Shown here: positions 8,561 through 49,059 of the stretch, piece after piece | Layout of the letters: each line of letters starts with the position of its first letter | Numbering within the stretch: the first letter of the stretch is position 1 | Source: Thalassotalea sp. | GTDB taxonomy: Bacteria > Pseudomonadota > Gammaproteobacteria > Enterobacterales > Alteromonadaceae | DNA: 64,000 nucleotides | Reading direction: 5' to 3' | Assembly: GCA_029237915.1 (NCBI GenBank) | Contig: JAQWHD010000042.1 | Location: 2,929 to 66,928 of the forward strand | Notes under the pieces: generated by a model | The model's input: the letters and a program-made list of their open reading frames with translations, nothing else | Database searches by the model: none | What the model was told of the DNA's origin: nothing | Program-made: the position numbers and the translations under genes

Positions 8561-8600
8561 TACTTTTGTAAAGACACAAAAGTAAGCAAAAGGTCTTCTT

Positions 8601-8748
8601 GCCCACTAATTTCTATCTTTAAAAAAAACTCTCTCTAAAAGCTTTCAACCGGTTGGAGGTAACATCCATGTAAAACACCAACCTCATAAAATCATCCATG
8701 ATTTTATGTTGAAATGAGAGAGTGATTTTCAAAGAAAATTAGGAGGGC
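8601..8748 (-). ncRNA. Long inverted repeat topped by two AUGGAU-loop hairpins (TwoAYGGAY-like RNA/repeat)
   Basis: Minus strand: cataaaatc-ATGGAT-gattttatg and ggttgg..ac-ATGGAT-gt..ccaacc, closed by tttcaac/gttgaaa and ctctctc/gagagag; outer arms 8601-8636 and 8716-8748 pair imperfectly. Confidence 0.6.
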
Positions 8749-8922
8749 AGATCTGCTATTTTCATTTACTTCGTAAAATTATATCGTTATTCACACTTCT
8801 TGGAACCAGTACGGTTATTTATTCAATAAAGTTTATTTAAACTAAAATCTGCAGGATGCTAAGTAGAAGTTGAAGACAAAGTGCGTATAACACTAAGAAA
8901 GAGAATATAGCTTAAAGAAAAC

Positions 8923-21959: not shown

Positions 21960-22173
21960 AGTTCTTATATAGTAGCTAAAATTACCCACGTATTTTCGCA
22001 TAAATTATACAAATGATAAAAGCTTTGTTTGAACTTCTCCGCTATTTTATTTGAAGCTTGTTGCTGAAATGATCTCAAAAGTAACTTTTTTCGTAATTGT
22101 TGCTAGGTTTCACACGTATTTTAGCCAAAATGCTGTAAAAATAAGCGGTTGATAAAATATTCTTAAAAAAGGT

Positions 22174-22209
22174 TTGACGACTAAGTTTCACATAGGTAAT
22201 ATGCGCTCC
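22174..22209 (+). promoter_or_regulatory. Sigma70 promoter of the tRNA operon with GC-rich discriminator
   Basis: TTGACG-17 nt-TAATAT followed by gcgctcc. Confidence 0.8.
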
Positions 22210-22243
22210 GTTGACACAGCAATGTGACTTCAAGAAAATATGT

Positions 22244-22320
22244 CGGTGATTAGCGCAGCTTGGTAGCGCACTTGGTTTGGGTCCAAGGGGTCGCAAGTTC
22301 GAATCTTGCATCACCGACCA
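22244..22320 (+). tRNA. tRNA-Pro(UGG)
   Basis: Cloverleaf; anticodon arm cttgg-ttTGGgt-ccaag; T-loop ttcgaat; encoded CCA; 77 nt. Confidence 0.98.
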
Positions 22321-22381
22321 CTTTTCTAACTTGTTAATTTTTAATGTTAAAGTTAAGATTAGCAAACCCTGTAGTTGTTTT

Positions 22382-22458
<77 letters not shown>

Positions 22459-22485
22459 TTTCCTAGATGGCAAGAAATATACAGT

Positions 22486-22562
22486 GGTGGCTATAGCTCA
22501 GTTGGTAGAGCCCCGGATTGTGATTCCGGTTGTCGTGGGTTCAAATCCCATTAGCCACCCCA
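22486..22562 (+). tRNA. tRNA-His(GUG)
   Basis: ggtggctata start including G-1; anticodon arm ccgga-ttGTGat-tccgg; encoded CCA. Confidence 0.98.
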
Positions 22563-22595
22563 TTTTTCTCCCCAAGAAAAATGAGTAACATGTAT

Positions 22596-22672
22596 CGGTG
22601 ATTAGCGCAGCTTGGTAGCGCACTTGGTTTGGGTCCAAGGGGTCGCAAGTTCGAATCTTGCATCACCGACCA
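22596..22672 (+). tRNA. tRNA-Pro(UGG), second copy
   Basis: Identical to 22244-22320. Confidence 0.98.
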
Positions 22673-23097
22673 CTTTTCAAAAATTCCTATTTGTTCAAAT
22701 TATCAATTATATTCTAAACATCAAATATTCGAACTTGCGAAGCAAGTTTTAAAAATTTGTCTGGAACAAATTTTCACGCACTAGTGCGCCCGAAGGGGAA
22801 AATACAGGACGTATTTTATTCATCTTGCATTCTTTGCACTTAGCGACCACTTTCTTTTTTATTTAAAATCTCCTCTAGTTATAAAATCTAATAAAGTTCG
22901 AATCTTGGCGCATGTAAATATTAGCGACCACTTTTCTTTTTTATTCAAAATATCCTCTAGTTATAAAATCTAGTAAAGTTCGAATCTTGGCGCATGTAAA
23001 TATTAGCGACCACTTTTCAAAAGTTCCTATTTGTTCAAATTATCAATTATATTCTAAACATCAAATATTCGAACTTGCGAAGCAGGTTTTAAAATTT
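22667..23097 (+). repeat. tRNA-Pro-derived trailer repeat array
   Basis: 88-bp unit at 22667 and 23007 (2 mismatches); two ~82-bp tandem units delimited by ttagcgaccac at 22840, 22921 and 23003, each containing aagttcgaatcttg. Confidence 0.85.
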
Positions 23098-23357
23098 ATA
23101 AAAACGCTCTAGTTCCTGGTTTCTGTTTCTTTTTATATATCTGTTACAAAATATAAATATTTTTATGTTTTACCGTTGTTTTTTGATTTATAGACCACAT
23201 ATATGCTCATAGTCATGTGGTATTGATAGTCTAAGTTGTTGTTAGTAAATAAGAACGAAAGCACTATTAAATAAGGTGTACTGTTATTAATAGCTAGCTA
23301 TTTAGCTATAAAATAGTTCATTGCGGGTAACGATTGTTATTACTTATGAGCAAACTG

Positions 23358-23386
23358 TTTACACCTGCGGTTTGCACCGCTATAAT
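23358..23386 (+). promoter_or_regulatory. Probable sigma70 promoter of tig
   Basis: TTTACA-17 nt-TATAAT then GC-rich tccgcgtc. Confidence 0.65.
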
Positions 23387-23599
23387 TCCGCGTCACATTT
23401 TAATCAAATCTATTTTTAATAGATTACAGAACATCTTTTTTATCGAGAGATAATTAGAAGCTTAATAATTAAGTTATCAAAATATTTTTCGAGTCAGTTT
23501 CATTATCAATGGGACTGTACTGATAATAAACATGCTGTTTATTATTAACATTATAGATGCATTAATAGGCGTAAAAACGTCAGAATTTGAGGTAATTAA

Positions 23600-24904
23600 A
23601 TGCAAGTTTCAGTTGAGACTACTCAAGGCTTAGAACGTAAAGTTACAATTTCTGTTCCTGCCGAAACAGTAGATTTAGAAGTTAAAAACCGTCTTCGCCA
23701 CGTAGCAAGAACACAAAAAATCAATGGCTTCCGTCCAGGTAAAGTACCAGCTTCTGTAATTCAGAAGAAATTTGGTGCTGGCGTACGTCAAGAAGTTGCT
23801 GCTGAATTAATGCAGCGTCACTTTGTTGAAGCGATCATGGCTGAGAAGTTAAACCCAGCAGGTCGTCCAGCTTTCGTTGCTAAAAGCAATGAAGAAGGCA
23901 AAGCATTAGAGTTTGATGCAACGTTTGAAATTTACCCAGAAGTTGAATTAGCCGGTCTTGAAACGATTAAAGTTGAAAAGCCAGCAGTTGAAGTAACTGA
24001 GAAAGATCTTGAAGAGATGTTTGTTACTTTACAAAACCAACATAAAACTTGGAAAGAAAACAAGCGTAAAACTAAGAAAGGCGACAAGCTAACTTTAGAC
24101 TTCAATGGTCGTGTTGACGGTGAAGAATTTGAAGGTGGTAAAGCTGAAGCTTTCGAACTTGAACTAGGCGCTGGTCGTATGATCCCTGGTTTTGAAACTG
24201 AAATCACAGGTATGAAAGTTGGCGAAGAGAAAACTATCTCTGTTACTTTCCCTGATGATTACCATGCTGAAAACCTTAAAGGTAAAGAAGCTGAGTTTGA
24301 TATCGTTGTTCACAAAACTGAAGGTCCAGTACTTCCAGAAATTAACGACGAATTCGCAGTTTTATTCGGTGTAGAAGAAGGTGGTGTTGAAGCCCTTCGC
24401 GCTGAAGTTCAAAAGAATATGGAACGTGAATTAACTCAAGCTGTTAAAGCTAAAGTTAAAGAACAAGTTCTTGAAGGTTTAGTTTCTGCTCATGAAATCG
24501 ATGCACCTAAAGCTTTAGTAGCTCAAGAAGTTGATGTTTTACGTCAACAAGCTATGCAACGTTTTGGCAATCAAATGGATCCTAAAAACATGCCACAACT
24601 TCCGGCTGAGATGTTCGACGAACAAGCTCAACGTCGTGTTAAAGTTGGTTTGTTACTAGGTGAAGTAATTAAGTCTAACGACTTAAAAGTAGATGACGAA
24701 AAAGTTAAATCTTTAATCGAGTCTGCTGCTTCTGCTTATGAAGATCCTTCTGAAGTTGTTGCATACTACATGAGCAACAAAGAGATGTTACAACAAATGC
24801 AACACGTTGCATTAGAAGAACAAGCTGTTGAGCTTGTTTTAGAAAAAGCTACAGTTTCTGAAAAGAAAACTGCGTTTAAAGACATCATGAACCCACAAGG
24901 TTAA
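23600..24904 (+). CDS. tig: Trigger factor
   Basis: [13 protein letters not shown], ribosome-binding [12 protein letters not shown] domain GRMIPGFE. Confidence 0.98.
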
Positions 24905-48946: not shown

Positions 48947-49059
48947 GGTGCCTCTCTTGGTCCTCTCGCAATGATACTCTGTGAACTCGGCCAGGTCCGG
49001 AAGGAAGCAACCGCAGCAGACGACTCATGTGCCGGGATGTGGCTGAGAGAGGGGCCACC
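48947..49059 (+). ncRNA. ffs: Signal recognition particle 4.5S RNA
   Basis: Conserved caggtccggaaggaagca and tgtgccgggatgt; terminal stem ggtg.cctctct/agagagg..cacc. Confidence 0.96.

What the first reader, a model, noticed from the sequence alone, without database searches (positions are those of the whole stretch)
22667..23097. Array of tRNA-Pro 3'-end fragments behind the tRNA operon
Seen: the tRNA end cgaccacttt recurs three more times (from 22844, 22925 and 23007). Two ~82-bp tandem units each hold 14 nt identical to the tRNA-Pro T-arm (aagttcgaatcttg), then a 17-nt filler, then cgaCCA. The 88 bp after the real tRNA are repeated 340 bp later with 2 mismatches. Established: tRNA 3' ends are integrase att sites, and E. 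coli tyrT has trailer repeats carrying the tRNA 3' end. Inference: scars of repeated integration/excision or unequal crossover, or processed CCA-ended small RNAs.
Basis: partly seen in the sequence, partly recalled or inferred. Interest (0 to 1): 0.62.

Follow-up and report, generated by a model that had tools for sequence, protein, structure and literature searches.

The report
tRNA-linked repeat array behind tRNA-Pro
The pieces of tRNA-Pro behind this tRNA operon are a marine-bacterium version of the "tRNA-linked repeats" known in E. coli since 1978, and one unit carries a folded RNA core related to E. coli small RNAs that bind the regulator CsrA, so the kind is known but this example links its two E. 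coli forms.

Summary
CGACCACTTT occurs five times in the window, all in this operon. Two 81/82-bp tandem units each hold a 14-nt T-arm piece, a 17-nt filler and CGACCA. The tRNA trailer recurs 340 bp later.

The array is a tRNA-linked repeat (TLR) locus, the class that includes the E. coli tyrT 178-bp repeats (RttR) and rrA/rrB/rrF behind 5S rRNA.

Unit 1 (22673-22849) holds a 77-nt four-hairpin core at 22747-22823, with strong covariation and two invariant GGA loops. A covariance model built only from this genus and its relatives finds exactly three sites in E. coli K-12: rrA, rrB and rrF. Those RNAs bind CsrA and Hfq in vitro.

In sister species the same unit ends in a 24-29-nt exact copy that starts 18 nt before the tRNA-Pro 3' end, which is the E. 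coli hallmark. In this window all three copies are split by inserts, and the two 82-bp units have no core and no fold signal. They look like decaying partial duplicates.

Across the 17 genus genomes with a complete spacer, it runs from 318 to 1207 bp and carries 0-3 extra ends. One species shows the empty state. No integrase or island is present.

Verdict: a new member of a known kind.

The parts
22174..22202 (+). Likely promoter of the tRNA operon (TTGACG, 17 nt, TAATAT, then a GC-rich discriminator)
   Evidence: Consensus scan, 9 of 12 matches. The same motif lies before the operon in G012. A consensus match only.
22244..22672 (+). tRNA operon Pro(UGG)-Arg(UCU)-His(GUG)-Pro(UGG). The second tRNA-Pro is 22596-22672 and its CCA is encoded.
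   Evidence: ARAGORN; Rfam tRNA model at 64-71 bits.
22673..22746 (+). Unit 1, trailer 'A'. It contains an inverted copy of the tRNA-Pro T-loop and T-stem (ATTCGAACTTGC, 22728-22739), the hairpin AACTTGC-GAA-GCAAGTT, and then a T/A run.
   Evidence: Inverted repeat I6 is 17 nt and 94% complementary to 22643-22659. The same inverted T-arm copy, with an ATGAGAA-type loop, precedes the core in Ser, Tyr and Phe units of relatives and in the E. coli tyrT repeats.
22747..22823 (+). Unit 1, RrB-type core of four hairpins. H1 is 22752-22760/22766-22774 with loop CTGGA. H2 is 22777-22781/22784-22788. H3 is CCC-GAA-GGG at 22789-22797. H4 is 22799-22805/22811-22817 with loop AGGAC. GGA lies at 22763-22765 and 22807-22809.
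   Evidence: Model R1 scores 98 bits, E 2e-18, and this is the only hit in the window. Covariation: 92% of cells paired, 17 pairs with changes on both sides, 0 of 500 shuffles as high, and slid controls at 31-49%. R1 also hits E. coli rrB at 56.6 bits over the full model length.
22822..22849 (+). Unit 1, split copy of the tRNA-Pro 3' end. ATCTTGCAT (22822-22830), then a 13-nt insert TCTTTGCACTTAG (22831-22843) in place of CAC, then CGACCA (22844-22849).
   Evidence: Read from the sequence. Orthologous units in G012, G005, G010, G011, G008, G015 and G017 carry an uninterrupted 24-28-nt copy that starts 18 nt before the tRNA 3' end.
22850..22930 (+). Unit 2 (81 nt), without a core. It has a T-rich trailer, an intact T-arm piece AAGTTCGAATCTTG (22894-22907), a 17-nt filler (22908-22924) and CGACCA (22925-22930).
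   Evidence: There is no fold signal (z +0.51) and no other copy in the genome. Ends with a 17-nt filler in the same place and the same TTAG-CGACCA tail (about two-thirds identical to this one) lie behind the first tRNA-Pro in G014; a similar split end occurs in the G010 trailer, and G008 has a BLAST match to this unit behind its first tRNA-Pro.
22931..23012 (+). Unit 3 (82 nt), a tandem copy of unit 2. T-arm piece 22976-22989, filler 22990-23006, CGACCA 23007-23012.
   Evidence: It differs from unit 2 by 3 substitutions and 1 indel. Fold z is +0.20.
23013..23100 (+). Trailer A', a second copy of trailer A. It stops where the core would start, so it is an 'empty' version.
   Evidence: 82 nt with 2 mismatches, then a 1-nt indel, then divergence. 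G016 has a single trailer of this type followed by the same downstream sequence.
23358..23386 (+). Likely tig promoter (TTTACA, 17 nt, TATAAT). It marks the end of the variable trailer region; tig starts at 23600.
   Evidence: 11 of 12 consensus matches. The motif is conserved in relatives. Trigger factor domains are confirmed.

Best explanation
This is a tRNA-linked repeat (TLR) array. TLRs are non-coding units that follow a tRNA or rRNA gene and end in a copy of that gene's own 3' end.

Unit 1 is a complete TLR. It has a trailer, an inverted T-arm copy, a 77-nt four-hairpin core sitting inside the T-loop of a partial tRNA-Pro 3' copy, and then the T-stem strand, acceptor strand and CCA. Its core is homologous to the core of the E. 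coli RrA/RrB/RrF small RNAs.

Likely working (inferred). The tRNA operon transcript reads past tRNA-Pro, since no canonical terminator lies in between. The copy of the tRNA end, with its U-rich trailer, is cut and trimmed like a real tRNA 3' end. That would release a short-lived RNA whose two GGA loops bind CsrA. Its amount would then follow tRNA operon transcription.

Units 2 and 3 and trailer A' are core-less partial duplicates. They were most likely made, and can be removed, by unequal recombination between the repeated tRNA ends and trailers. In this genome all three end copies are interrupted, so part of the array is probably decaying.
For: Shown here:
- Anatomy and statistics of the repeats.
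- Core structure supported by covariation, with GGA invariant in two loops.
- Model R1, built without any E. coli sequence, hits E. coli K-12 exactly three times, at rrF, rrA and rrB, each at 56.7 bits.
- In relatives the same core lies 42-408 nt behind tRNA-Pro, Ser(GGA), Ser(UGA), Tyr and Phe. In 22 of 26 relative units it is followed by a 18-29-nt exact copy of that tRNA's end, starting 8-22 nt (mostly 17-22) before the 3' end.
- The E. coli tyrT repeats have the same order of parts, and the annotated rttR ends at the CCA of the copy.
- The Pro-to-tig spacer is 318-1207 bp with 0-3 extra ends in the 17 genus genomes with a complete spacer, and an empty state exists in G016.
- Cores group by tRNA type across species, which points to local inheritance and local duplication.
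- csrA is present in this genome.
- G-U pairs outnumber C-A pairs about 10 to 4 on the + strand. Five free copies read here (L022, L024, L025, L033, L034) have a terminator just after them on the same strand.

From the literature (PMC8144298): the definition of TLRs; RrA/B/F are made by read-through, bind CsrA through GGA loops, and the repeated 3' end is proposed as the RNase E processing signal.
Against:
- The window's own end copies are split, with at most 10-14 contiguous nt, so processing may be impaired.
- The hairpin in trailer A may terminate part of the transcription before the core.
- In Phe-linked units of relatives the core is inverted relative to the tRNA. That does not fit a simple co-transcribed CsrA-binding RNA.
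- In E. coli, deleting or overexpressing rrA/B/F changed CsrA-regulated phenotypes only modestly (PMC8144298).
- Units 2 and 3 show no structure and no conservation beyond the end pieces.
Confidence: 0.72

Rival explanations
1. The array is inert wreckage. Tandem duplications of the tRNA-Pro gene plus its trailer lost their 5' parts, leaving 3' fragments with no role. The core is a passenger intergenic repeat.
For: Other tRNA loci of this genome (Asn, Val, Lys, Thr) are followed by pseudo-tRNA pieces that keep the 3' end. G007, G008, G011 and G017 carry longer pseudo-tRNA-Pro pieces that reach back to the anticodon arm. Units 2 and 3 have no fold signal. Eight of the 17 genus genomes with a complete spacer have no extra ends at all.
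Against: The core shows purifying selection on its structure and on two GGA loops across at least 22 genera and as far as E. coli. The start of the end copy is fixed at 17-22 nt before the 3' end for most units, across five tRNA types. Random decay would not produce that.
Confidence: 0.18
2. The units are small non-autonomous mobile elements that insert into the T-loop-to-3'-end segment of tRNA genes or of their copies. The inverted and direct copies of the tRNA end would act as targeting or recombination sites.
For: The core always sits inside a T-loop, between TTCGA and AT, and is flanked by an inverted and a direct copy of the local tRNA end. It occurs in either orientation (Phe units). Filled and empty T-arm copies lie side by side in this window: unit 1 against units 2 and 3, and trailer A against A'. 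Ser(GGA)-type cores nest next to Pro-type cores, which suggests a past move between loci.
Against: Cores otherwise group by tRNA type across species, so moves are rare. No target-site duplication, transposase or recombinase is linked to the units. The end sequences differ for each tRNA, which an ordinary transposon cannot achieve.
Confidence: 0.12
3. The repeated tRNA ends are attL/attR-type scars left by integrase-mediated integration and excision of islands or phages at tRNA-Pro.
For: The 3' ends of tRNA genes are common att sites (general knowledge). The repeated block CGACCACTTTT bridges the tRNA end and the trailer, as an att core would.
Against: There is no integrase, phage or island gene. 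The neighbours are ppiB, cysS and folD on one side and tig on the other. The units are 81-177 bp. Trailer identity extends 82 nt beyond the tRNA end. The same architecture follows 5S rRNA in E. coli and many tRNAs here. In G012 the spacer holds only two mechanical ORFs, of 53 and 87 aa.
Confidence: 0.04
4. The array is an assembly artefact of a draft genome.
Against: The copies differ by substitutions and an indel. The array is shorter than a typical paired-read span. Comparable arrays exist in single-contig genomes (G012, G010, G011 and G005).
Confidence: 0.03

Closest known systems
E. coli tRNA-linked repeats (TLRs): the tyrT/tyrV 178-bp repeats and RttR RNA (Rfam RtT, RF00391). First described by Egan & Landy 1978 and catalogued by Rudd 1999, both as cited in PMC8144298.
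   Same: Non-coding units directly behind a tRNA gene, in tandem arrays of one to a few. Each unit ends in a copy of the tRNA's last 18-19 nt. The order of parts is the same: inverted T-arm copy with an ATGAGAA-type loop, T-stem strand plus TTCGA, structured middle containing GCCCGAAGGG, AAT, T-stem strand, acceptor strand, CCA.
   Different: The Rfam RtT model does not match the window at E<=1, and R1 scores only 7.6 bits on the tyrT units. So the cores have diverged beyond model recognition. In the window the end copies are split by 13-17-nt inserts.
E. coli RrA/RrB/RrF small RNAs: TLRs behind 5S rRNA, between terminators T1 and T2 (PMC8144298).
   Same: The core is homologous. R1 hits only these three sites in K-12, full length, at 56.7 bits. 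They share four hairpins with loops CNGGA and AGGAC, a CCCGRAGGG hairpin, and then a copy of the upstream stable RNA's 3' end.
   Different: Here the core follows tRNA genes (Pro in the window; Ser, Tyr and Phe in relatives) rather than 5S rRNA. It lies in Alteromonadaceae, outside the 12 enterobacterial genera reported. No pair of canonical terminators brackets it. Binding to CsrA or Hfq is not tested.
CsrB/RsmX/Y/Z-type CsrA-sequestering RNAs and the TwoAYGGAY motif (Rfam clan CL00106).
   Same: GGA lies in hairpin loops. The H4 loop region, AUACAGGAUGU or AUACAUGGAUGU in many copies, resembles the CsrA selection consensus RUACARGGAUGU (from memory). A free copy in this genome gives a weak rsmX match (33.5 bits against a cut-off of 56).
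   Different: There are only two GGA loops per unit. No Rfam family reaches its threshold on the window's unit. The true TwoAYGGAY hit in this window lies elsewhere, at 8590-8758.
3'ETS-leuZ, a functional RNA released from a tRNA operon trailer in E. coli (cited in PMC8144298).
   Same: A regulatory RNA cut out of the 3' trailer of a tRNA operon transcript.
   Different: 3'ETS-leuZ acts by base-pairing with small RNAs and has no copy of the tRNA end. No sequence relation was seen.

Membership tests
tRNA-linked repeats (TLR) | Lies immediately downstream of a tRNA or rRNA gene, on the same strand, within the operon | tested here: met
   The units start at 22673, directly after the CCA of tRNA-Pro at 22672, on +.
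tRNA-linked repeats (TLR) | The last 18-19 bp of the unit are identical to the 3' end of the upstream tRNA or rRNA gene | tested here: inconclusive
   In the window the copies are split. Unit 1 has 9 nt, a 13-nt insert and CGACCA. Units 2 and 3 have 14 nt, a 17-nt filler and CGACCA. The longest contiguous matches are 10-14 nt. Orthologous units in seven sister species, with cores 67-95% identical to the window's, carry 24-28 nt uninterrupted, starting 18 nt before the 3' end.
tRNA-linked repeats (TLR) | One to five units in tandem per locus | tested here: met
   Three units plus a partial fourth (trailer A'). Relatives have 0-3.
tRNA-linked repeats (TLR) | Same internal order of parts as the E. 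coli tyrT units: inverted T-arm copy, T-loop split by a structured middle, then the tRNA end | tested here: met
   Met for unit 1 by direct comparison of sequences. Units 2 and 3 lack the inverted copy and the core.
RrA/RrB/RrF small RNA core | Sequence and structure homology of the core | tested here: met
   R1 scores 98 bits on the window and 56.6-56.7 bits on rrA, rrB and rrF. These are the only three hits in E. coli K-12.
RrA/RrB/RrF small RNA core | Location behind 5S rRNA, between two terminators | tested here: not met
   The unit is behind tRNA-Pro, and the scan found no terminator-like site in 22000-23650.
RrA/RrB/RrF small RNA core | GGA motifs in hairpin loops that bind CsrA | not testable with these tools
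   GGA is invariant in the H1 and H4 loops and csrA is present. Binding needs an experiment.
Rfam RtT (RF00391) | Match to the covariance model | tested here: not met
   No match at E<=1 in 22000-23700. The model scores 133-138 bits on the four E. coli tyrT units.
Integrase att-site scars at a tRNA gene | An integrase or island genes bounded by the repeated tRNA end | tested here: not met
   The neighbours are ppiB, cysS, folD, tig, clpP and clpX. The repeats enclose no ORF of 60 aa or more.
TwoAYGGAY (RF01731) | Match to the covariance model | tested here: not met
   The only hit in the window is at 8590-8758 on the minus strand. There is none in 22000-23700.

The most novel reading that the evidence does not exclude
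TLRs may be one ancient, retargetable module of Gammaproteobacteria. In this reading, a CsrA-binding four-hairpin core sits in the T-loop of a partial 3' copy of whichever stable-RNA gene it follows, flanked by an inverted copy of that same end. The module would be copied to new tRNA or rRNA genes by a still unknown mechanism that re-tailors its ends. It would serve to tie CsrA activity to the rate of tRNA and rRNA transcription. The E. coli tRNA-linked TLRs would then be diverged descendants that lost the GGA loops.
Probability: 0.2. Interest if true: 0.8.

Novelty: new member of a known kind. Interest (0 to 1): 0.45.

Why it matters
The function and origin of tRNA-linked repeats have been open since 1978. 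In E. coli only the three units behind 5S rRNA are predicted (and RrB shown) to bind CsrA. The 19 tRNA-linked units look unrelated to them in that respect.

In this genus the RrB-type core, with two invariant GGA loops and clear covariation, sits behind tRNA genes and keeps the E. coli hallmark of an end copy about 18 nt long. That joins the two E. coli subgroups into one family and extends the family beyond the enterobacteria.

It also offers a natural series for experiments on processing and CsrA binding: full, core-less, split-end and empty states at one locus.

For this window alone the result is modest. It is a partly decayed TLR array, not an integration scar.

Tried and rejected
- Rfam scans of the region at E<=1, and of the whole window at gathering scores, found no family for the units.
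- BLAST of the trailer, core region and 82-bp units against the window's own genome found no other copy of the 82-bp units.
- Folding units 2 and 3 on both strands gave no signal.
- The consensus scan found no terminator.
- I considered an integrase scar and rejected it, because there are no such genes.
- I considered a tRNA-like cloverleaf with a full acceptor stem. For the Pro units no copy of the 5' acceptor strand CGGTGAT is present, so I dropped it for this locus, although some Ser units of relatives could form one.
- I considered that the filler arose from the tRNA 5' part, because both share ATTAGCG. A 7-nt match is too short to support that.
- R1 on the E. coli tyrT units gave only 7.6 bits.

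Full report
**Observation.** The window holds a tRNA operon on the + strand: Pro(UGG), Arg(UCU), His(GUG), Pro(UGG), at 22244-22672. It lies between folD (minus strand) and tig. The string CGACCACTTT, which is the tRNA-Pro end plus four trailer bases, occurs five times in 64 kb. All five are here (22315, 22667, 22844, 22925, 23007), against 0.2 expected. The T-arm piece AAGTTCGAATCTTG occurs four times against 0.00 expected. Tandem Repeats Finder reports an 82-bp period with 2.2 copies. Cut at the CCA ends, the units are 22850-22930 and 22931-23012, and they differ by 3 substitutions and 1 indel. The trailer 22673-22754 recurs at 23013-23094 with 2 mismatches. Similarity ends a few bases later, exactly where a hairpin-rich core begins in the first copy.

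**What relatives show.** A search of 60 related genomes with the trailer region found that the best conserved piece is not the 82-bp unit. It is window 22727-22830. In G012 this piece forms three tandem units, of about 166, 166 and 168 bp, each ending in a 24-28-nt exact copy of the tRNA-Pro 3' end.

I aligned 16 copies from 13 genomes. They form four hairpins with strong covariation: 92% of cells are paired, 17 of 28 pairs have changes on both sides, 0 of 500 shuffles reach any of the observed measures, and partner-slid controls give 31-49% pairing. The invariant bases include GGA in the loops of hairpins 1 and 4.

A covariance model, R1, built from these copies finds the element in 38 of 61 genomes and 22 of 43 genera, with up to 50 copies per genome. 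Within the genus, 11 of 20 further loci that I fetched have a tRNA gene within 300 nt.

The core lies behind tRNA-Pro, Ser(GGA), Ser(UGA) and Tyr in the tRNA's orientation, and behind tRNA-Phe in inverted orientation. In 22 of 26 relative units the side away from the tRNA carries a 18-29-nt exact copy of that particular tRNA's end. The copy mostly starts 17-22 nt before the 3' end, that is, within the T-loop. Upstream of the core lies an inverted copy of the same tRNA's T-arm and part of its acceptor strand, often with the loop ATGAGAA.

**Identification.** This is the class called tRNA-linked repeats. PMC8144298 summarises it as follows. TLRs were first seen as the 178-bp sequence repeated 3.14 times at tyrT (Egan and Landy 1978). 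There are 22 TLRs at ten loci in E. coli K-12 (Rudd 1999), with one to five per locus. [quoted passage not shown] Their function is unknown except for three units behind 5S rRNA, rrA, rrB and rrF. Those three are transcribed by read-through of terminator T1 and processed, and they bind Hfq and CsrA in vitro through GGA motifs in loops.

I tested the relation directly. R1 contains no E. coli sequence, yet it hits the rrnB T1-T2 spacer over its full length at 56.6 bits. In the whole K-12 chromosome it hits exactly three places, the ends of rrnD, rrnA and rrnB. The E. coli hairpins have the loops CGGGA and AGGAC and the hairpin CCCGGAGGG, in the same order as here.

The tyrT units are more distant (7.6 bits) but share the full layout: GGGGAAGG-ATGAGAA-GCTTC, AAGG-TTCGA, a middle part with GCCCGAAGGG, AAT, then CCTTCCCCCACCACCA. 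The annotated rttR RNA ends exactly on the CCA of the copy. The Rfam RtT model recognises the four tyrT units (133-138 bits) but not the window.

**Anatomy of the window's array.**
- Unit 1 (22673-22849) is a full TLR. It has trailer A with the inverted T-arm piece ATTCGAACTTGC and the hairpin AACTTGC-GAA-GCAAGTT, then the core (22747-22823, which is R1's best score anywhere at 98 bits), then the tRNA end.
- Here that end is split. ATCTTGCAT is followed by a 13-nt insert and then CGACCA.
- Units 2 and 3 have no inverted copy and no core. They hold an intact T-arm piece, a 17-nt filler and CGACCA.
- Units 2 and 3 do not fold better than shuffles (z +0.5 and +0.2) and have no other copy in the genome.
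- An end with a 17-nt filler in the same position and the same TTAG-CGACCA tail occurs behind the first tRNA-Pro in G014, and a similar split end in the G010 trailer. G008 gives a BLAST match to this unit behind its first tRNA-Pro. So this variant is old rather than private.
- Trailer A' is an empty copy of A.

**Dynamics.** In the 17 genus genomes with a complete spacer, the spacer from the second tRNA-Pro to tig is 318-1207 bp and carries 0 to 3 extra CGACCA ends. In an eighteenth genome, G015, the contig ends before tig; two extra ends are visible there. G016 has one trailer of the A type followed by the same downstream sequence as the window. That is the state expected before a duplication, or after recombination between the 96-nt direct repeats.

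Units 1 and 2 of G012 are identical. In a tree of 36 cores, the copies group by tRNA type across species: Phe, Tyr, Ser(UGA), and Pro together with Ser(GGA). Free, terminator-flanked copies group with E. coli rrB, although a 77-nt alignment gives limited resolution. So the units are mostly inherited in place and change by local duplication and loss. Moves between tRNA types are rare.

Other tRNA loci of this genome (Asn, Val, Lys, Thr) are also followed by pseudo-tRNA pieces that keep the 3' end.

No integrase or island gene lies near the locus here, and the G012 spacer holds only two mechanical ORFs of 53 and 87 aa.

**Mechanism.** Shown: the structure, the homology and the variability. Inferred: the RNA-level role.
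- The operon promoter is likely at 22174-22202, and the scan finds no canonical terminator before the tig promoter. Read-through into unit 1 is therefore plausible.
- By analogy with RrB, the copy of the stable RNA's end would be cut and trimmed like the real one. The 173-nt form of RrB ends 3 nt after the repeated 18 nt, and the authors propose RNase E recognition (PMC8144298). RttR ends at the CCA of its copy.
- That processing would release a unit RNA whose two GGA loops bind CsrA. The genome has csrA.
- G-U pairs outnumber C-A pairs about 10 to 4 on the + strand. Five free copies read here have a terminator just downstream on the same strand. Both points favour an RNA read in this direction.

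Against a simple picture: the inverted cores behind tRNA-Phe, the split ends in this window, and the weak phenotypes reported in E. coli.

**Limits.** I could not check reads, unit number or transcription.

**Verdict.** This is a real, non-random array that belongs to a known kind, the tRNA-linked repeats. It is a new member from Alteromonadaceae. The added value is that an RrB-type, probably CsrA-binding core sits behind tRNA genes here. The integration-scar reading is not supported.

Noticed in passing
window 8590-8758 (minus strand): A true Rfam TwoAYGGAY match (RF01731, 55.1 bits against a cut-off of 43). It belongs to the same Rfam clan as CsrB and RsmX. It is not part of this finding.
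   Followed up: partly
own genome C21:1563-1639 (minus); L034 1539-1639: The only other R1 core in this genome (55.8 bits). It lies between two terminator hairpins after a gene and gives a weak rsmX match (33.5 bits against a cut-off of 56). It may be a free-standing RrB-like small RNA gene.
   Followed up: partly
own genome C35:15530-16300; C54:57840-58200; C54:14650-15310 (minus); C42:1-620 (minus): tRNA-Asn, Val, Thr and Lys loci are each followed by pseudo-tRNA pieces that keep the tRNA 3' end. The Thr piece has a roughly 55-nt insert in its T-loop, with hairpins of the type CTATATGGATATAG that carry GGA. R1 does not detect it.
   Followed up: partly
L024 (G010:C1:3078420-3079096) and L025 (G010:C1:3391300-3392047): Tandem arrays of at least five R1-like units of about 70 nt, each with two GGA loops, ending in a terminator. 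This is a candidate CsrB-type RNA gene of the genus. No Rfam CsrB-clan hit at E<=0.1.
   Followed up: partly
L009, L011, L026, L036, L037 (behind tRNA-Ser in G003, G029, G012, G001, G013): After the Ser-linked units come runs of hairpins with variable stems. Each starts with a copy of the tRNA-Ser end (ACCGCCA). The loops are conserved as ACATCCATGT, which is the reverse complement of the AYGGAY-type loop. The spacer CATAC is also conserved.
   Followed up: no
L002 2095-2160 (G012), the G014 Pro-tig spacer, and own genome C42 about 260-130 (minus): Heptamer microsatellites (CTCGTTT or CGTTCCT, 9 to about 20 copies) lie downstream of tRNA operons in several species. The window has only a remnant, at about 23113-23135.
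   Followed up: no
L033 (G011:C1:1250966-1251641): An R1 core lies just past the 3' end of a 5S rRNA gene but on the opposite strand, with a terminator hairpin between them.
   Followed up: no
window 48955-49051 (+): Small SRP RNA (Rfam RF00169, 68.7 bits).
   Followed up: no
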